From the UHGV virus genome UHGV-0248979: a stretch of 64,000 nt of DNA; one strand, written 5' to 3'. Source of the DNA: a virus. Below, one piece after another: positions 1 to 17,343 of this stretch. Every line of letters begins with the position of its first letter. Within the stretch, counting starts at the first letter, position 1. Position numbers and translations under genes: made by a program. The notes under the pieces were generated by a model. It made no database searches and was not told the DNA's origin. It was given only the letters and a program-made list of their open reading frames with translations.

Positions 1-238
1 AGAACAACGGTTGCGACGCAGCGATCAGTTCTTCAGGCTGTTCACGCGCAACACAAAGTAAGCGTATCAAATCAGGGTTAGAATCCGATAAAATATACCG
101 GCTGTAATTCGTATTTAGGAAAACAGACCCTGCACCCACAAACGGTTCTACAAAGGTTGTACGTTTAGGCAAGACCTTTTGTAATTCCCCTAAAACACGT
201 GTTTTCCCACCCATCCACTTAATAATTGGTTTCCGCAT
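1..238 (-). CDS. dam: DNA adenine methyltransferase (Dam-like), N-terminal part only; gene runs off the window start
   Basis: Minus-strand translation from ATG at 238 gives MRKPIIKWMGGKTRVLGELQKVLPKRTTFVEPFVGAGSVFLNTNYSRYILSDSNPDLI..., closely matching the N-terminus of E. coli Dam as recalled (KWAGGK, VEPFVGAGSVFLNT, SRYIL, DLI). Absent from ORF track because truncated. Overlaps the 3' end of the upstream gene. Confidence 0.8.
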   Translation of the reverse strand, partial: MRKPIIKWMGGKTRVLGELQKVLPKRTTFVEPFVGAGSVFLNTNYSRYILSDSNPDLIRLLCVAREQPEELIAASQPLF

Positions 239-1217
239 TATATCCGCCTTGTAACGATGATACTTCGTCGCCTAACACCAGCTCGACACGATTTTTCCGA
301 CGCTCCCAACTGACGACGTCATCGTCGCGCACTAAAACAAATTCGTACTCGTAGGACCGAAATTTAAATAATTCGACGACCAGGTGTCTAAATGCAGGGT
401 TGTTATTGAAACACCCTATCTCCAATGGTGCCGCTGTTGTCGATGCAATCTGCAGAGCACGGTATAACAAAGTCCGTCCGATACCACGCCCCCGATGTGT
501 TTCACTTACCGCAATGGCTTTTAATTCACACTCGTTAAGATTACGCAATTTAACTTGCACCACGCCCACAACATCGTTGCCGTCCATCCAAACGTAGGTG
601 TGGTGGTTGACGTGACGTACTAACTCCACCAACGTTTCGACTTGTGGCATGATTTGTCGTGAGCGGCCCACAGGGTCAGCGTTGATGTTTTCAACTACGC
701 TCGCGCCTAAAAGCAACATAAGCTGTTCTCGTTGTGCAGCGGTTAACTCTTTATAAAAATCACCAGAGATGTTCTTCACGTTCGTTGGTAGAGCGATATC
801 CAATAACGAGCGTGTACCTAAACGGTATGTGGTGTGGGTGTGTCTAAATCCTAAGTCATTAAGCTCAGAGATTTCTTCTACACCACTGGCGATTCGATTA
901 AGATACGTAAAACCGGTGTAGTCGAGTACCAGTAGTAGGTTCAGTTTGTTCAAACAACCTGGTACAATTTCATGCATATACAAGCAGTGTAACGTTGGAT
1001 CGCCGTAAATGTGTTTTGTGATGATAAACCCTTGAATTGTTTTTCCTTTTTGTAAAGAGAACGTATTCAGTTCACTATTGCACAACGCCTCACGAATCAC
1101 CGCACCGTTAGGGCCAGATAAACAAGCCTGAAGTTGAGGGTTGCGAATATCTCTACGTGCTAACCGACCTACTGTTAAATCCGTGGCGGTACGTTCTATA
1201 GTCTTCCTAAAAGCCAT
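219..1217 (-). CDS. Two-domain protein with C-terminal GNAT acetyltransferase domain
   Basis: 332-aa ORF; C-terminal part has GNAT motif A-like HRGRGIGRTLL; N-terminal ~200 aa unrecognised. SD AAGGAG upstream of ATG at 1217. Confidence 0.6.
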   Translation of the reverse strand: MAFRKTIERTATDLTVGRLARRDIRNPQLQACLSGPNGAVIREALCNSELNTFSLQKGKTIQGFIITKHIYGDPTLHCLYMHEIVPGCLNKLNLLLVLDYTGFTYLNRIASGVEEISELNDLGFRHTHTTYRLGTRSLLDIALPTNVKNISGDFYKELTAAQREQLMLLLGASVVENINADPVGRSRQIMPQVETLVELVRHVNHHTYVWMDGNDVVGVVQVKLRNLNECELKAIAVSETHRGRGIGRTLLYRALQIASTTAAPLEIGCFNNNPAFRHLVVELFKFRSYEYEFVLVRDDDVVSWERRKNRVELVLGDEVSSLQGGYNAETNY

Positions 1218-1265
1218 GTTAATTACTCCTTAAAAGGTCGTCTCAAAACAATACGCTAAAGCTGT

Positions 1266-1300
1266 AAAAACAAAAAAGAAAGGGGAACCGAAGTTCCCCA
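1266..1300 (-). terminator. intrinsic terminator
   Basis: Hairpin GGGGAAC-CGAA-GTTCCCC preceded on plus strand by an A-run; just downstream of stop at 1312. Confidence 0.6.
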
Positions 1301-1311
1301 ATTATTAAACA

Positions 1312-1968
1312 TCACGCAAAAGGGGCAGAGCTTGTGAAAGCAAGATTGGGTGTCATGCCAGCTTTCCCTAATTTTTCATACAGGTAATTGAAAAATCTGA
1401 GATGGACCTCGTAGTGGCCAGTCGCTACTCGCTGGCCGTAAACTTCTACCAAGTCAGGCGAAAACTTAATATGGCAGTTTTGTCTAGAGAACAAAGGTTG
1501 TTGCACCCCACCCTTAATTAAGATGCGATACTTTTTACCATCGTCTGTTACGGCGTGAAGAATATTTGTATTGAAATGGAAATAGATAGAAGGGTTAAAA
1601 CTCAACCAGTCGGCAGCATTGACTAGTAGGTCAGCTAACTTAACACCGATTTTGTCAAGTTCAGGCCCTTCAAACTTATGCATTAACCGCAGGAGAATTT
1701 CAGTAATAACCGTACCTGTAAGTAACTTGTCTCTATTAAGGCCAGGCGCAACCGCCAAAATGTCGCCATTATAAGTGCAGACAAGTGTGAATAAGTTGAA
1801 AGGCTGGTCTTGATAAAAATCGAAAACCAGGTCAGTATACGGATTAAAAGTTAAGAATTTCACCCCAATTATTTCATTAACGCAGGGTAAAAGTTCAACC
1901 TTCGCAGCCGGTTGAACTTCGTTGGCTTTAGTCTCGTTCTTTACAGTTTCTTTAGTTTTCGGTGCCAT
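1312..1968 (-). CDS. hypothetical protein
   Basis: 218-aa ORF, SD AGGAG upstream of ATG, hairpin terminator downstream; no motif recognised. Confidence 0.5.
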   Translation of the reverse strand: MAPKTKETVKNETKANEVQPAAKVELLPCVNEIIGVKFLTFNPYTDLVFDFYQDQPFNLFTLVCTYNGDILAVAPGLNRDKLLTGTVITEILLRLMHKFEGPELDKIGVKLADLLVNAADWLSFNPSIYFHFNTNILHAVTDDGKKYRILIKGGVQQPLFSRQNCHIKFSPDLVEVYGQRVATGHYEVHLRFFNYLYEKLGKAGMTPNLAFTSSAPFA

Positions 1969-1989
1969 GATATTACTCCTTCAGGTTGA

Positions 1990-2349
1990 TTAGTGTGTTA
2001 CAGTGTTAGTGATAAAACGCACATTCTTCTTGGTACGTTTAATGGACGTGTTTGCAACGTAGTCCAATGCGGACTCTACGTGAACGGTTACTGAGCAACG
2101 ACCCTTAACGGAATTAAAACTAATCTGATATTTCAGACGAATCGCATCAGCAACTTTCATCATAATCGGCAAGCTTAAACGTTCTACGCGTTCGTTCTTA
2201 ATAGATGAGATAACGGGTTGTGAAACTTTCGCAAGCTGGGCAAGCTCACGCTGGGTAATGTCTTTCGTGGTCAAATGACAAACTACGTAAGACAAATGAA
2301 GGCCAAATTTACGTTTTGCCAGAACGATGGAATTGTGATTGTAAGCCAC
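1990..2349 (-). CDS. XRE-type helix-turn-helix DNA-binding protein (candidate early regulator)
   Basis: 119-aa ORF with HTH-like ITQRELAQLAKVSQPVISSIKN; apparent GTG start at 2349 preceded by AGGAG; conserved upstream motif at 2398-2423. Confidence 0.55.
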   Translation of the reverse strand: MAYNHNSIVLAKRKFGLHLSYVVCHLTTKDITQRELAQLAKVSQPVISSIKNERVERLSLPIMMKVADAIRLKYQISFNSVKGRCSVTVHVESALDYVANTSIKRTKKNVRFITNTVTH

Positions 2350-2397
2350 GGTAATACTCCTTTAGGTTAACAAGTCGGTGTAAAGAGTTAATTGTAA

Positions 2398-2423
2398 CTC
2401 TCACCTAAGTAATATATATCTGA
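2398..2423 (-). promoter_or_regulatory. conserved promoter-like motif, copy 1 (candidate phage early promoter)
   Basis: Plus-strand CTCTCACCTAAGTAATATATATCTGA; on coding strand TCAGATATATATTACTTAGGTGAGAG, 48 nt upstream of start at 2349. Confidence 0.45.
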
Positions 2424-2462
2424 GAAAAAATAAAATATAGGTACCACCGTTGGGTGGTACCT
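2424..2462 (-). terminator. intrinsic terminator
   Basis: Hairpin GGTACCACC-GTTG-GGTGGTACC preceded by A-rich run; downstream of tmk stop. Confidence 0.6.
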
Positions 2463-2468
2463 AAGCGG

Positions 2469-3092
2469 TTAGTTTGCTAAAATGTACGTAACAATCTCTG
2501 CGGCTTTCAAACGGTAATCGTCATTCTGCGTTACCGGTAATAACGCGTGAAGACAACCGCCTTCTGTTAAGATGTGGTGCGCGAATCGATAACGGTCACG
2601 TAAACCATCCCAACATTGGTTGTCCTTTAGATACTTAACTGTAAGTACCTCATCATCCCAATTCTTACCTTGTTCTTCTACACGTTTCTTAAATCGTGTT
2701 AACGCTGTTGGGTAATCAACATCTGTCCAAACATAAAGGTCAGGAGTGTGGAAATGACGAGTTAGCTTACGTTGGAAAACCACATCCTTACCATCTGTCC
2801 CCTGATAAACGATCGTTGAAGGACAGAAGCGATCGAAAATAACGACATCGTACTCGTCAACAACATGGTCCAACGTGTGAAGGAAATCATCACACATCGC
2901 TTCAGCAATTTTTGTATTCGAAGCAGACTGTACAACCAAACTGCGTGCACGAATGCCCGCCTCGGTTTCAGATGTCGGATGGTTCCGAACGCAAACTTTT
3001 AATCCGGCGGATTCCAACATCGCTTTTACCATTTTACACAACGTTGATTTCCCAGAAAAGTCAGGACCATCAATAGACACTGTCTTAAGCAT
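2469..3092 (-). CDS. tmk: thymidylate (dTMP) kinase
   Basis: 207-aa ORF with N-terminal P-loop VSIDGPDFSGKSTL and downstream DRF motif, the thymidylate kinase arrangement; ATG at 3092 verified; terminator downstream. Confidence 0.7.
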   Translation of the reverse strand: MLKTVSIDGPDFSGKSTLCKMVKAMLESAGLKVCVRNHPTSETEAGIRARSLVVQSASNTKIAEAMCDDFLHTLDHVVDEYDVVIFDRFCPSTIVYQGTDGKDVVFQRKLTRHFHTPDLYVWTDVDYPTALTRFKKRVEEQGKNWDDEVLTVKYLKDNQCWDGLRDRYRFAHHILTEGGCLHALLPVTQNDDYRLKAAEIVTYILAN

Positions 3093-3161
3093 TATAGTTT
3101 TACCTTTTTACGCACGTTAAGTGAAACTTCTCACAATGAGGGTAACAGTTGTAATAATTTA

Positions 3162-3210
3162 CAATAAAAAAGAAACCCGCCCCTACCGTTAAGTAGGGGT
3201 AAGGTTTTAT
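3162..3210. terminator. hairpin terminator (bidirectional-looking)
   Basis: CCCCTAC-CGTTAA-GTAGGGG flanked by A-run and T-run. Confidence 0.5.
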
Positions 3211-3812
3211 TGGTGGTCAACAATCGGACCACTCCACACTTCTGACGTTTCCGGTGAGGTGAGGTTAGCAGCCTGTGCAGAAGTTACGCACAGCAAGACT
3301 AACCCTTGTTTAGCAAGATAATGTTGCATTCTTGCTGCCTGCACGGCGGTGTCCACAATAACGAGCTCAGCGTCACGTAGAAGCGTTAGAGCTGCTTGCC
3401 CCTCTTGCGGTGTGGTTAAAGCATCACTGTCGTCCAGAATGCGTTTAAGGCGGTTATACGCCAACCCAGTTACATTACTCCGACCTGCACGAAGATCAAC
3501 GACCATATTGCTGTATTCCCCCACCACTTGTTGCGTCGAGTTTGGATAAAATCGAAACGCAGCACGGCGACGTTTACGTCGCACCTCAGAAATCGCGCGT
3601 TGTAAAACCAGCAATACGTATTTCGGAGCCGCTTCGCTATTCGGTCGACGCATCTTGGCTAAACGTGCAGCTAAATCCAAAATTTTCGTTAAGGGATAGC
3701 GGTGTTTAAACCCGTCACGTTCGATAGTAACGCCACGTTTAGGCAACTTGCCTGTTTTGTTGATATACGATACTGTAATCAATAGTAATGAATCGAGAAT
3801 CATCTCTGACAT
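3207..3812 (-). CDS. hypothetical protein
   Basis: 201-aa ORF in co-directional block; no motif recognised. Confidence 0.5.
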   Translation of the reverse strand: MSEMILDSLLLITVSYINKTGKLPKRGVTIERDGFKHRYPLTKILDLAARLAKMRRPNSEAAPKYVLLVLQRAISEVRRKRRRAAFRFYPNSTQQVVGEYSNMVVDLRAGRSNVTGLAYNRLKRILDDSDALTTPQEGQAALTLLRDAELVIVDTAVQAARMQHYLAKQGLVLLCVTSAQAANLTSPETSEVWSGPIVDHQ

Positions 3813-3826
3813 TACAAGGCCCTCTC

Positions 3827-4198
3827 TTAGAACCCCTCAAGAACAGCTTTCACAAATTCGTAAACCGTGCGTCGGTGTTCTTCAAGCGGATAAACAAACT
3901 TAGAATAATCGTTGTTCCAGACAACCGGATAGAGGTCGCCATCACAACTTAAATAGCTCTTACGAACCATGTAATAATCTAAACCTACACGGAAGTTTAA
4001 CGACAGACTACCGTGTTTACTACAAACGTGTAGCTGGAGCGATTTCACACCGTCGTGAGTTGGCGATTCAATCGTTTCCGCATACAATACATCCGAACAC
4101 TGTTCTATAGCGCTAACGACATCTCTGAGGTTGTTGTCTGCATCGATGGTCGCTTTTCGGAGAGCGTCGGTGTATTGCTGAAGTTCTCGATAGAACAT
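3827..4198 (-). CDS. hypothetical protein
   Basis: 123-aa ORF; AGGAGA SD 8-9 nt upstream of ATG at 4198; overlaps 3' end of upstream gene. Confidence 0.45.
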   Translation of the reverse strand: MFYRELQQYTDALRKATIDADNNLRDVVSAIEQCSDVLYAETIESPTHDGVKSLQLHVCSKHGSLSLNFRVGLDYYMVRKSYLSCDGDLYPVVWNNDYSKFVYPLEEHRRTVYEFVKAVLEGF

Positions 4199-4737
4199 CC
4201 TGCTAATCTCCTGTCTCTACCGTAAGGTAGGGGAAATGCTTTGTGTTCATATTCTGCAACGACATACGCAGGATAGAACAAAAGGTATTTATAGAACGTA
4301 GACAACGTAACGTTTTTCTGGGTGGCTAAAAAGTAATTAAGATCGGGGTTGTCTGGAAAAGCAAAATGCAATCCTGTGTATACCTGACCTTTATACTCCC
4401 CATTAAAGGGTGTGACTGCACATCGTGGGTGTGTCGGCTCGACGTGTAACCAACGACTTCTTACGTGATAAACGCCACGGACTGTCGCGTTTCGTGTTTT
4501 ACCCAAATAACGACAACGAATATTCTTTTCCCACGCCGCACGTTGAGTGGGTGAACCCAGAGAAACAAACCGCGTTAAAGCTTCAGGTGTAAAGTAATCA
4601 AAAATGCCGGTCGGTAAACACCAACACGCTTTATCGATTCGTACCACTCTCCAACCAGGACGAAAACCCACAGCGTAACGCTCTACACCAAAAGTATATC
4701 TAGACCCGTCATGAAACGGTACTAATCTTGCAGCCAT
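4105..4737 (-). CDS. hypothetical protein
   Basis: 210-aa ORF immediately downstream of the GNAT gene; no motif recognised. Confidence 0.45.
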   Translation of the reverse strand: MAARLVPFHDGSRYTFGVERYAVGFRPGWRVVRIDKACWCLPTGIFDYFTPEALTRFVSLGSPTQRAAWEKNIRCRYLGKTRNATVRGVYHVRSRWLHVEPTHPRCAVTPFNGEYKGQVYTGLHFAFPDNPDLNYFLATQKNVTLSTFYKYLLFYPAYVVAEYEHKAFPLPYGRDRRLAGCSIENFSNTPTLSEKRPSMQTTTSEMSLAL

Positions 4738-4738
4738 T

Positions 4739-5206
4739 TTAGATTTCCTTTATCATTTCCCTGCATTCGGTACGGAATCCCATCTTCTCATACAAGGAGA
4801 TAGCTTTAACGTTGTTGTCTAACACATCCAGACTCATCCAACCACAGCCTTTGGACTTTCCGTATTCACGGACTTTGTCCATAAGCGCACGGCCTACCCC
4901 TTGAGAGCGTGCTTCAGGAACCACATAGTAATTCCCGATGTAAACAAACGTGTCCTTTGAGCAAGAACCCATTGAGAACGTCATAAATCCCAGAAGCTGT
5001 TCGTTGTCGTCCACCGCACACGCACAGAGATAATCTTGAGGCCAAATCTCTTCTAAACGTTCGATGGGGTTGAACGTGTCACGTCCGGTTAACTGACTAA
5101 TACGCACTTTCTCTTCTGCGAACAGCATGTTGTGCAGTTTGAGTACCTGGTCGCCGTATAACTTTCCGTATTTACTGTCGGGTTTGAGAATAATAGTAAT
5201 ACGCAT
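4739..5206 (-). CDS. GNAT family N-acetyltransferase
   Basis: 155-aa ORF with canonical GNAT motifs (VPEARSQGVGRALM; NNVKAISLYEKMGF); ATG at 5206 overlaps upstream stop (TAATG). Confidence 0.8.
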   Translation of the reverse strand: MRITIILKPDSKYGKLYGDQVLKLHNMLFAEEKVRISQLTGRDTFNPIERLEEIWPQDYLCACAVDDNEQLLGFMTFSMGSCSKDTFVYIGNYYVVPEARSQGVGRALMDKVREYGKSKGCGWMSLDVLDNNVKAISLYEKMGFRTECREMIKEI

Positions 5207-6339
5207 TATTTAACCTCAATCAGCGACAACCTGCACCATTCCAGTAAGCCCTCCGCAACACGCACCAACGAAGTAGTAAAGGCATCTTCTAAACGCAGCG
5301 CGTTTTTATACCGGACAGTAGCATCGCGTAACTCACGGCCATCTAACGATTTCAGCTCTTTTTTCATTCGCTGAACTTCATCGTAAATACCGGTATAACC
5401 AACACTACGTCGTTTCGTACCACGCTGACGTAACGCTCGGATAATGTTTCTAACAGCGTCTAGAGCTGAACCGATTTCGTGCAAGTTCAGAGATTTGATT
5501 GTGTGGCCAAAATCACCATCGCGGGCAATCGCCCACTCAATCTTACCGTTGTCGTGTTCAACGACCACCACGTTACCAGGCCACGGATACGCTTTCACCG
5601 TTTTAAACGGATCAATAATACCGAACAGTCCTGCGCTTCGTTTAATCGCCCAGTTCGTCGACCGACCCACTTTCTCCAAACCGCTCTCGGTAACTTTCTT
5701 GCTCTTACCGATAATAGTGCGTGTTTTAACGGTATACTCGTTGACCATCGCATCCATTGCGCTCAGGTTCTTACTGAATTCAATACATGCTTTTACGTTA
5801 GGCTTGTCTTCTAAACAAACTTTGGTTGTCCAACTTCCCGTGTCGCAGTCGACAGGCTTTAACGTGTCCTTGATGCCGAGTAAACTTAGCTTTGCGGTTA
5901 ACTTTTGCAGTTTGCGTTCTAAAGTCGTCGCTTTAGACGTCGCTTCTTTTAATTCCTTTATGACTTCTTTACCGGCGGCTTCCGCGAAGTCGACAAAACG
6001 TAACGCAAGTTGCTTAGAATGCTTACCTGCGAAGTTTCCAGTTGCCTTAGCCCCCGCTACCGCTGCCTTTCCAGCAACACGACTAGCCCCTTTAACCGCT
6101 CTGCCGGTCGCGCGTGCGACCGCTTTACCTACTCCTGCGTAAGGCTCAGTGTCCGCAACAAATTGCGCGCGTTCCATCATCGCTGCAGACTCTAGCGCAA
6201 CCTGCACATCGTCTAAAACCCACCGTTTTCGGATAGCGACAATCGCCGGATAATTGTCTTTAACATTAAGCGACTCTAACGCGACCAATCGATCGTAGTC
6301 ATCGCAAAGGACTTCTAAATCGGAATCTAATGTTGACAT
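5206..6339 (-). CDS. hypothetical protein
   Basis: 377-aa ORF; Ala/Lys-rich central region; no motif recognised. Confidence 0.5.
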   Translation of the reverse strand: MSTLDSDLEVLCDDYDRLVALESLNVKDNYPAIVAIRKRWVLDDVQVALESAAMMERAQFVADTEPYAGVGKAVARATGRAVKGASRVAGKAAVAGAKATGNFAGKHSKQLALRFVDFAEAAGKEVIKELKEATSKATTLERKLQKLTAKLSLLGIKDTLKPVDCDTGSWTTKVCLEDKPNVKACIEFSKNLSAMDAMVNEYTVKTRTIIGKSKKVTESGLEKVGRSTNWAIKRSAGLFGIIDPFKTVKAYPWPGNVVVVEHDNGKIEWAIARDGDFGHTIKSLNLHEIGSALDAVRNIIRALRQRGTKRRSVGYTGIYDEVQRMKKELKSLDGRELRDATVRYKNALRLEDAFTTSLVRVAEGLLEWCRLSLIEVK

Positions 6340-14625: not shown

Positions 14626-17343
14626 ATGGACGATATTAGTAAATTAACGGGCGACCCCGCCGTAGCTGCAATTCTTCGTAAAACTACGGGCCCAGCACCC
14701 CAGCAACAACGCGGTACGCGTAGCGAGGGTGGTTCTACGCCAACACGTCAGGAACTTGCAGGAATTGTAAGTTCGCGTATTCGTACTATCAAAAATGCGG
14801 AACGTATCTTTGATGCGTTACCTGAACTCGAAACGATTGTTACCATTGCAACTTCGAGCTTGCTGTCGACAAAAGACTTAATCAACACCACGTTGATTTA
14901 CGACAACATCGCAGACATTCCAATTGACTTACGTAATGACTTACTGACACCAACGCGTGATTATCATGATAACGTACGTCAATTACCTAAGAAATTATAT
15001 CAGTGGATTTACGACGCGTTAAAAACAAAAGGCGCAAGTCCAGTGATGATAATCTCGGACAATGGATTTGACCAGCTGTTCGGTTTAGACACCAAAATCG
15101 CTACCGAATCCATGCGTCGTTCTCAAGCCGCGTATTTCGAAGAACAACTCGGTATTCTCGGCCCAATCAACTCGCAAGATGACGGGCAACGCGTGGGTGT
15201 GGAATCTATTCTGAGTCGTGTCCGTGGACCTGTTAAAGGACCACAATCACTGAAAATCAATTTCAGTAACCATGATAAGATGTTCTCAGATAAGTTCGAA
15301 ATGGACATCTCGATTACCGACAACCCACGTATCACGTTACTGCCCCATGCTTATCGTCGAATCGCGCATGAGAACGCTCGTACTGGTCTCTACGGCCAAT
15401 TAGAGCAAGCCGCATATGAAAAGCCTGCCACACCGACAGGTGCTGCGCCGTATGAAGTTAATCAACAGTTTAACGATCGTCAGCGCGATGCGGCTGAAAA
15501 AGGTTTCATTAACTTAGGTGATCTGAACGAAGCGTACAAAAGTACACCAAAAACTCAGCTTTATGGTAACATCCCGATTATTTCGATGGATGAAAACAAC
15601 CAGATCGACTATTTCGAATGTTTACTCCCTGCTGAGTCTACCGCCCCGTTGGTTATTGGTGACGACGTTCGTAACCCTATTGGGTTTCTGACCATTATTG
15701 ACGATATGGGTAACTTCATCAACTCACGTTCCTCACTTTACGGGGACGCGAACTTTATGAACTACCTTAATAACGACGGCATGACAGACAGTATTATCAA
15801 CCGCTCTAATTTAGGCTTGGGTAATACCTCTCGTATAACGCCTGAAATCGCCAACCGTTTAAGTGCACGTTGCAGCGAGATTGCTGAGAACGAATTTACC
15901 CGCGCTTTAAGCCAGGCGTTGGGTGGTGCCGAAATCAGCATGAAAATTACCGAAACCTTCGGTCGTATTCTACTGGCACGTCACCTCGCAAAACGTCACA
16001 CACAGGTTGTCTATATCCCGGTTAATAACTTATGCTACTTTGCAACCGACTTTAACGAAGATGGTATCGGGGTGTCTATTACCGAACGTTCCTTTATCAT
16101 CTCCACGGTCAGGATGGCGCTGTTGTTCGCAACAATGAACTCTTCAGTGTTGAACTCAGCGCGTCACATGCAATATGACATTGAGCTATCGCCGGACGAT
16201 ATGAACGGTCAGAAAACAGTTGACCAAGTTAAATCGGATATCCTCAACTCCTATAATCGTCGTTTACCGATGTGGGGCGATATCAACGATGCCTGGTCAA
16301 TGGGGGCTAATGCCGGGATTGCATTTAACGTGACGGGTAACGAATACTACGCCAGTCATAAAGTGTCAGTTTCGGACACAACGCCTGAGTATAAAGTGCC
16401 CGATCAGCAAATCGATGAAAACTTACTCCGCCGTACTTGCCACATCGCGTGTGTAGACCCGGATCTTGTTTTGACACCAGAAAACCTGGAATTTGCTTCG
16501 CAGATTTATTCCAAGTCACTGCTGGTGACTCAACAAATCGTGAAGAAACAAGAAATCCTGTCTACGCCGTTAACACGCTACGTGACAAACAGTTTGCAAG
16601 CCTCTCCTAAGTTACAAGCAGAATTGATTCGTATTATCGTTGAGTATATTCGCAATCAAAATCCTAACGTAACAGGTGAAGACTTGACCAAGCAAACGTC
16701 AGAGTATCTGGCGAAGTTCATCAATGGCATGAAAGTCACCTTACCACCACCAGACACATCAGCTTCTTCTTCACAAGCGGATCTGTTCGATAAACGCTAT
16801 GAGTTCATTGAGAAACTGGCGGATCTGGTTGTTACCGACGACATTTCAAATATGCTTCAGAATGAAGGTATCGAAATGCAACCTGATGATCTCAAGACGA
16901 TGATTAAATCGTTCTATACGCGTAACTGGCTACGCAATCAGGGCATCGAAACCGATCTGTTTGATTTGATCTACGACGAAGATAAACGTGGCGAAAACGT
17001 CAAGATGATTTCTGATGAAATTGCATCGGCATCTAAAACGTTGATTCAGTTAGCAAAGCGTGCAACAGGTAAAGTTGAAACCTTAGCAAAAGCGGCTGAT
17101 TTGAATCCTGAGTACGCCAATAACTTCGGCGGGGGTAGCGACTTTGGTGGCGGGTCTGAAGACGACGGCGGCTTAGGTGGCGATGAGGACTTAGGTGGTG
17201 ACGATCTGGGTGGTGATGAAGACATGGACATGTCTGATGAAGAAACGACGGAAACCGATACGACAACGGAAGAAGACGTTTCTGCTGAAGACACGGACGA
17301 GACGGATACCGGTACAGACGACAACACCGACGAAACTCTCTAA
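14626..17343 (+). CDS. large hypothetical protein with acidic low-complexity C-terminal tail
   Basis: 905-aa ORF, ATG at 14626 verified; last ~70 aa are Gly/Asp/Glu/Thr-rich repeats; followed by bidirectional terminator. Confidence 0.55.
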   Translation: MDDISKLTGDPAVAAILRKTTGPAPQQQRGTRSEGGSTPTRQELAGIVSSRIRTIKNAERIFDALPELETIVTIATSSLLSTKDLINTTLIYDNIADIPIDLRNDLLTPTRDYHDNVRQLPKKLYQWIYDALKTKGASPVMIISDNGFDQLFGLDTKIATESMRRSQAAYFEEQLGILGPINSQDDGQRVGVESILSRVRGPVKGPQSLKINFSNHDKMFSDKFEMDISITDNPRITLLPHAYRRIAHENARTGLYGQLEQAAYEKPATPTGAAPYEVNQQFNDRQRDAAEKGFINLGDLNEAYKSTPKTQLYGNIPIISMDENNQIDYFECLLPAESTAPLVIGDDVRNPIGFLTIIDDMGNFINSRSSLYGDANFMNYLNNDGMTDSIINRSNLGLGNTSRITPEIANRLSARCSEIAENEFTRALSQALGGAEISMKITETFGRILLARHLAKRHTQVVYIPVNNLCYFATDFNEDGIGVSITERSFIISTVRMALLFATMNSSVLNSARHMQYDIELSPDDMNGQKTVDQVKSDILNSYNRRLPMWGDINDAWSMGANAGIAFNVTGNEYYASHKVSVSDTTPEYKVPDQQIDENLLRRTCHIACVDPDLVLTPENLEFASQIYSKSLLVTQQIVKKQEILSTPLTRYVTNSLQASPKLQAELIRIIVEYIRNQNPNVTGEDLTKQTSEYLAKFINGMKVTLPPPDTSASSSQADLFDKRYEFIEKLADLVVTDDISNMLQNEGIEMQPDDLKTMIKSFYTRNWLRNQGIETDLFDLIYDEDKRGENVKMISDEIASASKTLIQLAKRATGKVETLAKAADLNPEYANNFGGGSDFGGGSEDDGGLGGDEDLGGDDLGGDEDMDMSDEETTETDTTTEEDVSAEDTDETDTGTDDNTDETL

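What the first reader, a model, noticed from the sequence alone, without database searches (positions are those of the whole stretch)
1..238. Dam methyltransferase very similar to the host-type enzyme
The N-terminal 79 residues are close to E. coli Dam as recalled, much closer than to T4 Dam. This suggests acquisition from, or adaptation to, an enterobacterial host and a role in evading restriction or Dam-dependent host processes.
Basis: partly seen in the sequence, partly recalled or inferred. Interest (0 to 1): 0.45.

Follow-up and report, generated by a model that had tools for sequence, protein, structure and literature searches.

The report
Jumbo-phage Dam (GATC) methyltransferase, N-terminal fragment
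The window begins inside an ordinary, intact DNA adenine (GATC) methyltransferase gene that this E. coli-associated jumbo phage shares with SPN3US-like phages; it belongs to the E. coli Dam family but was inherited within the phage lineage, not recently taken from the host.

Summary
Observation confirmed. Window 238..1 (minus strand) encodes the first 79 residues of a D12-class Dam methyltransferase (Pfam E 3e-17). This fragment is 49% identical to E. coli Dam. T4 Dam matches weakly (44% over 39 residues).

Near-identical ~225-kb metagenome contigs supply the rest of the gene. It is intact at 271 aa, with FxGxG, DPPY and every EcoDam GATC-contact residue. Full-length identity to E. coli Dam is 44% (227 bits, against 44 bits for T4 Dam).

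"Very similar to the host enzyme" overstates this. The protein passes the Dam-subfamily model but fails NCBI's E. coli-Dam equivalog cut-off (259 against 441 bits).

Its true orthologues are SPN3US gp105 (67%) and phiEaH2 Dam (71%), in the same thymidylate kinase–HTH–GNAT–Dam gene block. The nearest non-jumbo relatives checked are Dams of P2/186-like prophages, not chromosomal Dam. GC content matches the phage and dN/dS is about 0.08. This points to old vertical inheritance under purifying selection, not recent host capture.

The biological role is untested. GATC is strongly depleted in the window and in relatives (O/E 0.53, 0.37, 0.26), so GATC appears to be a liability that methylation may cover.

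This is a new member of a known, already annotated kind. Interest is low.

The parts
1..238 (-). Codons 1-79 of a 271-codon Dam-family (D12 class, GATC-type) DNA N6-adenine methyltransferase gene, cut by the window edge. The fragment contains the N-terminal K7-W8 DNA-contact motif, motif I (F33-x-G35-x-G37) and the motif II acidic residue D52.
   Evidence: Translation; Pfam PF02086 E 3e-17; PDB 2g1p E 3.4e-19; residue mapping. The full gene was recovered from contig L005, which is identical to the window over 1217 nt.
243..250 (-). Shine-Dalgarno-like AAGGCGGA, 4 nt upstream of the dam ATG. It lies inside the 3' end of the upstream GNAT gene.
   Evidence: Read directly from the sequence. The same motif occurs in the 81%-identical relative L014.
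219..1217 (-). Upstream gene of the same transcription unit: a 332-aa protein with a C-terminal GNAT acetyltransferase domain. Its last 20 nt overlap the dam start. It is the orthologue of SPN3US gp104.
   Evidence: ORF list; Pfam PF00583 E 2.5e-12; synteny with SPN3US and with the E. coli element.
1282..1299 (-). Terminator-like hairpin plus T-run between the preceding 218-aa gene and the GNAT gene. It marks the likely upstream boundary of the GNAT-dam unit.
   Evidence: Consensus scan only. Function is inferred.

Best explanation
Window 238..1 is the 5' end of an intact, functional orphan Dam-family DNA methyltransferase gene (271 aa) of an uncultured ~225-kb jumbo phage. The phage belongs to the SPN3US/phiEaH2 (Chimalliviridae-like) lineage and is associated with E. 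coli/Shigella.

The enzyme should bind S-adenosylmethionine through motifs I and II, flip the adenine of GATC into the DPPY pocket and methylate N6, as E. coli Dam does. This is inferred from residue conservation, not shown.

The gene is an old resident of this phage lineage. It sits in the same place as SPN3US gp105, as the second gene of a GNAT-dam-257-aa unit with overlapping stop and start codons. It is not a recent copy of the host chromosomal dam.

Most likely biological role (inference only): it keeps the phage's own rapidly replicating DNA fully methylated at its remaining GATC sites. In this lineage that DNA is probably enclosed in a phage nucleus. Progeny DNA would then look like 'self' to GATC-reading systems: MutH/MutS/MutL and SeqA in Dam+ hosts, and GATC-cutting restriction enzymes elsewhere. 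The parallel depletion of GATC from the genome would address the same liability.
For: Identity of the gene:
- Pfam D12 domain.
- TIGR00571 dam subfamily at 254.6 bits, cut-off 114.85.
- PADLOC best match is 'orphan methyltransferase', E 2e-86.
- E. coli Dam PDB 2g1p at E 2e-66 over residues 3-269.

Intactness: the 271-aa ORF is present in six near-identical contigs, with 0-3 mismatches to the window over 1217 nt. The 98%-identical protein cluster P0001 has 101 member sequences.

Catalytic and specificity residues:
- EcoDam K9, W10, F35/G37/G39, D54, Y119, N120, R124, P134, R137, Y138, D181-P-P-Y184 and R249 are all identical in the window phage enzyme.
- L122 is M, as in T4 Dam.
- The roles of most of these residues (K9, Y119, N120, L122, R124, P134, Y138, R249) are taken from PMC4417163.

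Vertical inheritance:
- 71% identity to phiEaH2 Dam and 67% to SPN3US gp105, against 44% to E. coli Dam.
- The thymidylate kinase-HTH-(hypothetical)-GNAT-Dam-hypothetical order is conserved in SPN3US, a metagenomic relative, an E. coli isolate element and a 223-kb 'Shewanella' contig; phiEaH2 keeps the block but without the GNAT gene next to dam.
- Neighbour-joining bootstrap is 98% for the close phage clade. It is 78% for the split that puts the jumbo-phage and prophage-type Dams apart from E. coli chromosomal Dam.
- The two nearest 'bacterial' hits whose context was checked lie between integrase/cox/fil and gpA/portal genes of P2/186-like prophages.

Selection: dN 0.22 and dS 2.7 (dN/dS 0.08) against phiEaH2; dS is saturated against the other relatives.

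No sign of recent transfer: dam GC is 44.9% and the window is 45.5%.

GATC liability: GATC observed/expected is 0.53 in the window (159 against 301, z about -8), 0.37 in SPN3US and 0.26 in phiEaH2. It is the first or second most depleted 4-bp palindrome in each. This matches the classical GATC avoidance of enterobacteriophages (McClelland 1984; Deschavanne & Radman 1991, as cited in PMC5014478).

Lineage context:
- Seoulvirus and Erskinevirus are classified in Chimalliviridae.
- The window carries a phiKZ-type major head protein, split RNA polymerase beta subunits and a core protein shared with PhiPA3 and RAY.
- Chimalliviridae nuclei exclude restriction and CRISPR enzymes (review PMC12707154).
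Against: - Only 79 of 271 codons lie in the window. The remainder is taken from near-identical public contigs, not from this molecule.
- No methylation data exist for this phage or, as far as my literature searches found, for SPN3US-type phages.
- The protective role is weak on its face. The hosts are Dam+ and so should not carry enzymes that cut unmethylated GATC. A phage nucleus should already shield the DNA from nucleases.
- Strong GATC depletion despite a phage Dam could mean that methylation is incomplete or is not the main defence.
- Chimallin itself was not identified in the window. Nucleus formation is inferred from relatives only.
Confidence: 0.8

Rival explanations
1. Recent capture of the host's chromosomal dam gene by the phage.
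For: The protein belongs to the gammaproteobacterial Dam family. It is much closer to E. coli Dam than to T4 Dam. The phage lineage occurs in E. coli/Shigella assemblies.
Against: - Only 44% identity to E. coli Dam over the full length.
- It fails the E. coli Dam equivalog cut-off, 259 against 441 bits.
- Syntenic orthologues exist in phages of Salmonella and Erwinia and on a 223-kb 'Shewanella' contig.
- Synonymous sites are saturated between relatives.
- GC content equals the phage background.
- The tree places chromosomal Dam outside the group of jumbo-phage and prophage-type Dams, at 78% bootstrap.
Confidence: 0.03
2. The methylation mainly serves the phage's own programme rather than protection. 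Examples would be marking packaging or replication sites, as in phage P1, whose pac site needs Dam methylation, or tuning promoter use.
For: There is a precedent: P1 dmt is essential in dam- hosts because pac cleavage needs GmATC (review PMC12707154). If host Dam cannot reach DNA inside a phage nucleus, a phage-borne copy would be needed for any such signal (inference). The gene is under strong purifying selection across a lineage whose DNA is already shielded from nucleases.
Against: No GATC cluster resembling P1 pac was found in the 64-kb window. The only cluster of 4 sites within 150 bp (16822-16968) lies inside a structural gene and is not a repeat. GATC is depleted genome-wide and not concentrated in intergenic regions. 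Only about a quarter of the genome was examined.
Confidence: 0.2
3. Dam works as half of a two-gene module with the translationally coupled downstream 257-aa protein. That partner could be a GATC-reading nuclease or another effector aimed at unmethylated competitor or host DNA.
For: The dam stop and the next start overlap (TAATG) in L005 and L014. A gene of similar size (257-282 aa), weakly similar in sequence (19-24% identity), follows dam in every relative examined, including the 48%-identical Dam of the 'Shewanella' contig.
Against: - The 257-aa protein has no Pfam, NCBIfam, PADLOC or PDB match.
- It shows no evident PD-(D/E)xK-type motif among its 17 invariant positions.
- Its AlphaFold model is unusable, at pLDDT 37.8.
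- Gene overlap is common throughout these tightly packed phage genomes, so coupling alone is weak evidence.
Confidence: 0.1
4. The gene is a decaying or inactive remnant and is truncated in this genome.
For: Only a fragment is visible in the window.
Against: The truncation is at the window edge. The complete ORF is present in six contigs that match the window at 0-3 of 1217 positions. All catalytic residues are kept. dN/dS is about 0.08.
Confidence: 0.02

Closest known systems
SPN3US gp105 and Erwinia phage phiEaH2/Asesino/Stratton 'DNA adenine methylase' (Seoulvirus and Erskinevirus, Chimalliviridae)
   Same: 66-72% identity over the fragment and 67-71% over the full length. Same length, about 271 aa. 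Same position downstream of the thymidylate kinase / HTH regulator block (with the GNAT gene also present in SPN3US) and upstream of a conserved protein of unknown function of about 260 aa.
   Different: A different, uncultured phage with no megablast-level DNA identity to any isolate in the phage collection. Here the GNAT gene overlaps the dam start by 20 nt. phiEaH2 lacks the GNAT gene next to dam.
E. coli Dam (PDB 2g1p; NCBIfam NF008152)
   Same: Same family (TIGR00571) and colinear over residues 3-269. All GATC-contact and catalytic residues are conserved. The same GATC specificity is therefore expected.
   Different: Only 44% identical, and below the equivalog cut-off (259 against 441 bits). 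It lacks the C-terminal tail of about 10 residues. It is phage-borne rather than in the chromosomal dam locus. It lies outside the chromosomal Dam branch in the tree.
Dam methyltransferases of P2/186-like prophages of Enterobacterales (for example Pectobacterium atrosepticum 'phage DNA adenine methylase', P0028; Salmonella P0037)
   Same: These are among the best-scoring relatives outside the jumbo-phage clade (46-49% identity). They fall on the same side of the tree split as the jumbo-phage Dams.
   Different: They are longer (280-321 aa), belong to temperate phages and sit in the early/replication region next to gpA. Identity is no higher than to many chromosomal Dams, so the relationship is distant.
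T4 Dam (PDB 1yfj, 1q0s)
   Same: Also a phage orphan GATC adenine methyltransferase of the D12 class. It shares the DPPY motif, R (EcoDam R124), P (P134) and M at the L122 position.
   Different: About 25% identity and 44 bits. It is a separate subgroup and not the source of this gene.

Membership tests
D12-class / Dam-family N6-adenine DNA methyltransferase (Pfam PF02086; NCBIfam TIGR00571) | Profile score above the curated cut-off | tested here: met
   The 79-aa fragment scores 63.6 bits on PF02086, cut-off 22. The full-length protein from the identical contig scores 254.6 bits on TIGR00571, cut-off 114.85.
D12-class / Dam-family N6-adenine DNA methyltransferase (Pfam PF02086; NCBIfam TIGR00571) | AdoMet-binding motif I (FxGxG), motif II acidic residue and catalytic motif IV (DPPY) | tested here: met
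   F33/G35/G37 and D52 lie inside the window fragment. D184-P-P-Y187 is in the remainder recovered from L005.
D12-class / Dam-family N6-adenine DNA methyltransferase (Pfam PF02086; NCBIfam TIGR00571) | GATC-recognition residues of EcoDam (K9, Y119, N120, L122, R124, P134, Y138) | tested here: met
   All are identical except L122M, which is the T4 Dam state. The residue list comes from PMC4417163.
D12-class / Dam-family N6-adenine DNA methyltransferase (Pfam PF02086; NCBIfam TIGR00571) | Actual N6-methylation of adenine in GATC | not testable with these tools
   This needs DpnI/MboI digestion or PacBio/Nanopore methylation calling of phage DNA. My literature searches found no such data for SPN3US-type phages.
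E. coli chromosomal Dam equivalog ('host-type enzyme', NCBIfam NF008152) | Score at or above the equivalog cut-off (441 bits) | tested here: not met
   259.1 bits; 44% identity.
E. coli chromosomal Dam equivalog ('host-type enzyme', NCBIfam NF008152) | Phylogenetic placement within chromosomal gammaproteobacterial Dam | tested here: not met
   The neighbour-joining split that places E. coli Dam and 52-62%-identical chromosomal-type Dams apart from the jumbo-phage and prophage-type Dams has 78% bootstrap. This is a distance method with sampling biased toward the query, so support is moderate.
SPN3US gp105 orthologue group (SPN3US-like jumbo phages) | Highest similarity to that group, plus conserved gene neighbourhood | tested here: met
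   The top 27 database hits are of this group, many on contigs of 220-250 kb. The clade has 98% bootstrap. Synteny is shown.
Methyltransferase of a restriction-modification pair | Adjacent restriction endonuclease gene | tested here: inconclusive
   No neighbour matches any PADLOC, Pfam or NCBIfam nuclease model. The Dam's best PADLOC model is 'orphan MTase'. The coupled 257-aa neighbour remains of unknown fold.
T4-type Dam | Closer to T4 Dam than to other Dam subgroups | tested here: not met
   T4 Dam scores 44 bits, against 227 for E. coli Dam and 141 for DpnM.

The most novel reading that the evidence does not exclude
In nucleus-forming jumbo phages of Dam+ enterobacteria, host Dam may be shut out of the phage nucleus. 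The phage-encoded Dam would then be the only source of GATC methylation on phage DNA. It might act together with the translationally coupled 257-aa partner. Methylation would serve as a phage-private epigenetic mark for packaging, late transcription, or telling own DNA from competitor DNA, rather than as simple anti-restriction. The conserved Dam-257-aa pair would then be an undescribed functional module.
Probability: 0.12. Interest if true: 0.55.

Novelty: new member of a known kind. Interest (0 to 1): 0.15.

Why it matters
On its own this matters little. Orphan Dam methyltransferases are common in phages, and this one is already annotated as 'DNA adenine methylase' in SPN3US-like genomes and in a RefSeq E. 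coli 'plasmid' that is in fact a related phage.

The finding is useful in three ways:
- It corrects the idea of a host-derived gene. The gene is a long-standing, purifying-selected resident of one jumbo-phage lineage.
- It shows that phages with their own Dam still purge GATC from their genomes by a factor of two to four.
- It raises a concrete question: what is GATC methylation for, in phages whose DNA is thought to be walled off from host nucleases and probably from host Dam?

Tried and rejected
- Megablast of window 1-6000 against the phage collection found no close isolate. The only match was a conserved intergenic element of about 75 nt. Orthologues therefore had to be found at the protein level and through exact-protein look-up of the neighbouring GNAT gene.
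- Literature searches for methylation data or a tested function of the SPN3US-type Dam gave only annotation-level statements.
- The 257-aa gene coupled to dam was tested as a possible nuclease partner. It has no Pfam, NCBIfam, PADLOC or PDB-profile match. The homologue search returned only close relatives. The AlphaFold2 model from 9 sequences had pLDDT 37.8, so no fold search was run.
- I looked for chimallin in the window to confirm nucleus formation. Two candidate ORFs next to the RNA polymerase genes (652 aa and 569 aa) have no PDB match, and the 652-aa ORF has no Pfam match either. The 652-aa ORF is a conserved chimallivirus core protein but not chimallin: it matches PhiPA3 gene 074, and PhiPA3's chimallin is, from memory, gp053.
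- The GATC cluster at 16822-16968 was checked for a tandem repeat. None was found, and it was treated as chance.
- My first definition of the jumbo-phage clade (P0001-P0027) was not monophyletic. The clade also contains P0048, P0089, P0050 and P0114. P0050 was then shown to sit on a 223-kb phage-like contig.
- Recent host capture and pseudogene status were considered and rejected.

Full report
**What is in the sequence.** The reverse complement of window 1-238 is an open frame of 79 codons. It starts at the ATG at 238-236 and runs off the left edge of the window. The other two frames on that strand are broken by stops. A Shine-Dalgarno-like AAGGCGGA lies 4 nt upstream, at 250-243. The start sits inside the last 20 nt of the preceding gene on the same strand, at 219..1217. 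That gene encodes a 332-aa protein with a C-terminal GNAT acetyltransferase domain. A terminator-like hairpin at 1299-1282 precedes the GNAT gene. GNAT and dam therefore look like one transcription unit.

**Is it a Dam methyltransferase, beyond chance?** Yes.
- The 79 residues match Pfam PF02086 (D12-class N6-adenine DNA methyltransferase) at E 3e-17.
- They match the solved E. coli Dam at E 3.4e-19.
- Identity to E. coli Dam is 49% over 77 residues, including the identical run VEPFVGAGSVFLNT.
- T4 Dam aligns over only 39 residues and does not appear among PDB hits for the fragment.

**Recovering the rest of the gene.**
- An exact-sequence look-up of the neighbouring GNAT protein found it in 151 blocks of the public assembly collection, with contigs of up to about 225 kb from ENA metagenome assemblies.
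- Six of those contigs match the window at 0-3 of 1217 positions, and L005 is identical.
- In all six the dam ORF is complete at 271 aa.
- Its stop overlaps the start of a 257-aa gene (TAATG).
- The refutation condition 'the full gene being disrupted' is therefore not met, as far as near-identical genomes can show.

**Which kind of Dam.**
- Against solved structures, the full-length protein scores 227 bits on E. coli Dam (E 2e-66, residues 3-269), 141 bits on DpnM and 44 bits on T4 Dam.
- Full-length identities are 44% to E. coli Dam and 25.5% to T4 Dam (using recalled sequences consistent with the PDB alignments).
- NCBIfam places it in the Dam subfamily TIGR00571 (254.6 bits, cut-off 114.85).
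- It does not reach the equivalog model of the E. coli enzyme (259 bits, cut-off 441).
- PADLOC's best model is 'orphan methyltransferase'.
- The residues that contact GATC or intercalate in EcoDam are K9, Y119, N120, L122, R124, P134 and Y138 (PMC4417163). In the phage protein all are identical except L122M, which is the T4 state. Motif I, D54, DPPY and R249 are also identical.
- GATC specificity and catalytic competence are thus strongly predicted, but not shown.

**Where the gene comes from.**
- The closest proteins in the isolate phage collection are the annotated DNA adenine methylases of Erwinia phages phiEaH2, Stratton and Asesino (72% over the fragment). Next come Salmonella phage SPN3US and its relatives (66%).
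- Over the full length, identity is 71% to phiEaH2 and 67% to SPN3US gp105.
- Gene order is conserved: thymidylate kinase, HTH regulator, hypothetical gene(s), GNAT, Dam, then a hypothetical gene of about 260 aa (phiEaH2 lacks the GNAT gene beside dam). This order is seen in SPN3US gp100-106, phiEaH2, an 81%-identical metagenomic relative, and a 223-kb contig binned as a Shewanella MAG.
- In the 5.8-billion-protein search, the first 27 hits (98% down to 49% identity) belong to this group, many on contigs of 220-250 kb.
- The next hits are 'bacterial' Dam-family proteins of Enterobacterales at 44-49% identity. They are themselves only about 48-50% identical to E. coli Dam, so they are not chromosomal orthologues.
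- The two whose context I examined sit between integrase/cox/fil and gpA/portal/terminase genes, that is, in P2/186-like prophages.

**Tree and selection.**
- A neighbour-joining tree of 125 sequences with 300 bootstraps gives 98% for the close clade (the window phage, its nine best database hits, phiEaH2 and SPN3US). It gives 80% for a wider jumbo-phage clade.
- It gives 78% for the split that puts jumbo-phage and prophage-type Dams on one side. E. coli Dam, the chromosomal-type Dams and T4 fall on the other.
- Sampling was biased toward the query and the method is simple, so the last figure is moderate evidence.
- Between the window phage and phiEaH2, dN is 0.22 and dS 2.7. dS is saturated against the other relatives.
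- The gene's GC content (44.9%) is that of the window (45.5%).
- Together these results describe an old, vertically inherited gene under purifying selection, not a recent acquisition from the host.

**Host and lineage context.**
- Seoulvirus and Erskinevirus are classified in Chimalliviridae, the nucleus-forming jumbo phages.
- The window carries a phiKZ-type major head protein, a DnaB-like helicase, a DNA polymerase and split RNA polymerase beta subunits.
- It also carries a 652-aa core protein shared with PhiPA3, RAY and RSL2.
- Chimallin itself was not identified in the window.
- An 82.5%-identical stretch lies on a circular 221,873-bp 'plasmid' of E. coli strain 98232 (urine, Egypt). It has the same gene block, and PGAP annotates 'DNA adenine methylase' there.
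- The 257-aa neighbour also occurs in a Shigella sonnei assembly.
- The host is therefore very probably Escherichia/Shigella, which is Dam+.

**What the enzyme is for.** This cannot be settled here.
- Papers on SPN3US-like phages only state that the methylase 'could provide defence against restriction-modification' (PMC6614189). I found no methylation data.
- GATC is strongly under-represented. The window has 159 sites against 301 expected from a second-order Markov model (O/E 0.53, z about -8). The ratio is 0.37 in 50 kb of SPN3US and 0.26 in 50 kb of phiEaH2. GATC is the first or second most depleted 4-bp palindrome in each.
- A phage that both removes GATC and carries a Dam appears to treat unmethylated or hemimethylated GATC as a liability.
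- My preferred reading is an inference. The enzyme keeps the remaining sites on fast-replicating phage DNA fully methylated, where host Dam is limiting or cannot reach. Chimalliviridae nuclei exclude host nucleases (PMC12707154); whether they exclude Dam is unknown.
- A P1-like signalling role is the main alternative (PMC12707154). I saw no pac-like GATC cluster in the 64 kb available.
- A pairing with the coupled 257-aa gene cannot be excluded. That protein has no detectable family and its AlphaFold model failed at pLDDT 37.8.

**Verdict.** Two points are overstated or wrong. At 44-49% identity it is not 'very similar' to the host enzyme. It was not recently acquired from the host; it is the orthologue of SPN3US gp105. 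This is a new member of a known and already annotated kind, of low interest in itself. The GATC depletion and the purpose of a Dam in a nucleus-forming phage are the only aspects worth an experiment.

Noticed in passing
window 2353-2431 (with terminator-like hairpin at 2463-2438), minus strand, between the thymidylate kinase gene (3092..2469) and the HTH regulator gene (2349..1990): A non-coding leader of about 75 nt is 87-94% identical in SPN3US-like Salmonella, Escherichia, Proteus and Erwinia jumbo phages. These phages share no other megablast-level DNA identity with window 1-6000. Some have 2-3 copies per genome, unannotated. It has no tRNA or Rfam match. It may be a conserved phage promoter or 5' leader.
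   Followed up: partly
L016 (NZ_CP173450.1, E. coli strain 98232 'plasmid' p98232-contig_4, 221,873 bp, circular): A complete RefSeq E. coli genome carries, labelled as a plasmid, what looks like a jumbo phage genome. It is 82.5% identical to window 120-4000 and has the same GNAT-Dam gene block. This gives a host assignment and suggests a carrier or pseudolysogenic state.
   Followed up: partly
L015 (GCA_051654845.1 JBOFYW010000579.1, 222.7-kb contig binned as Shewanella sp. MAG): The contig has the same order of GNAT genes, thymidylate kinase, Dam and a following hypothetical gene, plus an NAD-dependent ligase and DHFR. It is probably a jumbo phage genome mis-binned as bacterial. Its Dam is 48% identical to the window enzyme.
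   Followed up: partly
L008 5001-5019 (SPN3US JN641803.1 96857-96875): The annotated start of SPN3US gp105 (MGGK...) appears to be 6-8 codons too short. The tblastn similarity begins 18 nt upstream. The annotated protein lacks the N-terminal K-W motif that corresponds to EcoDam K9/W10.
   Followed up: no
window, L012 (SPN3US 100001-150000) and L013 (phiEaH2 30001-80000): GATC is 2- to 4-fold under-represented (O/E 0.53, 0.37, 0.26) in phages that encode their own Dam. CTAG is also strongly depleted (0.38, 0.64, 0.18).
   Followed up: yes
beyond the window's left edge; L005 11795-12565 (the gene starting at the dam stop codon): A conserved gene of 257-282 aa is translationally coupled to dam (TAATG). 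It follows dam in every relative examined. It has no Pfam, NCBIfam, PADLOC or PDB match, and its AlphaFold model is unusable (pLDDT 37.8).
   Followed up: partly
window 4200-4740, minus strand: This stretch of about 540 nt lies between the small GNAT gene (5206..4739) and the 123-aa gene (4198..3827). It has no gene call in the metagenome contigs, and the equivalent stretch is also uncalled in phiEaH2 and in the PGAP-annotated E. coli element. The window nevertheless has a 210-aa ORF there (4737..4105). It may be an unannotated gene or a conserved non-coding region.
   Followed up: no
window 219-1217 and 4739-5206, minus strand: Two GNAT acetyltransferase genes lie within 5 kb of dam. One has an N-terminal extension of about 190 aa of unknown function. 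The Shewanella-associated relative has three tandem small GNAT genes at the corresponding place.
   Followed up: no
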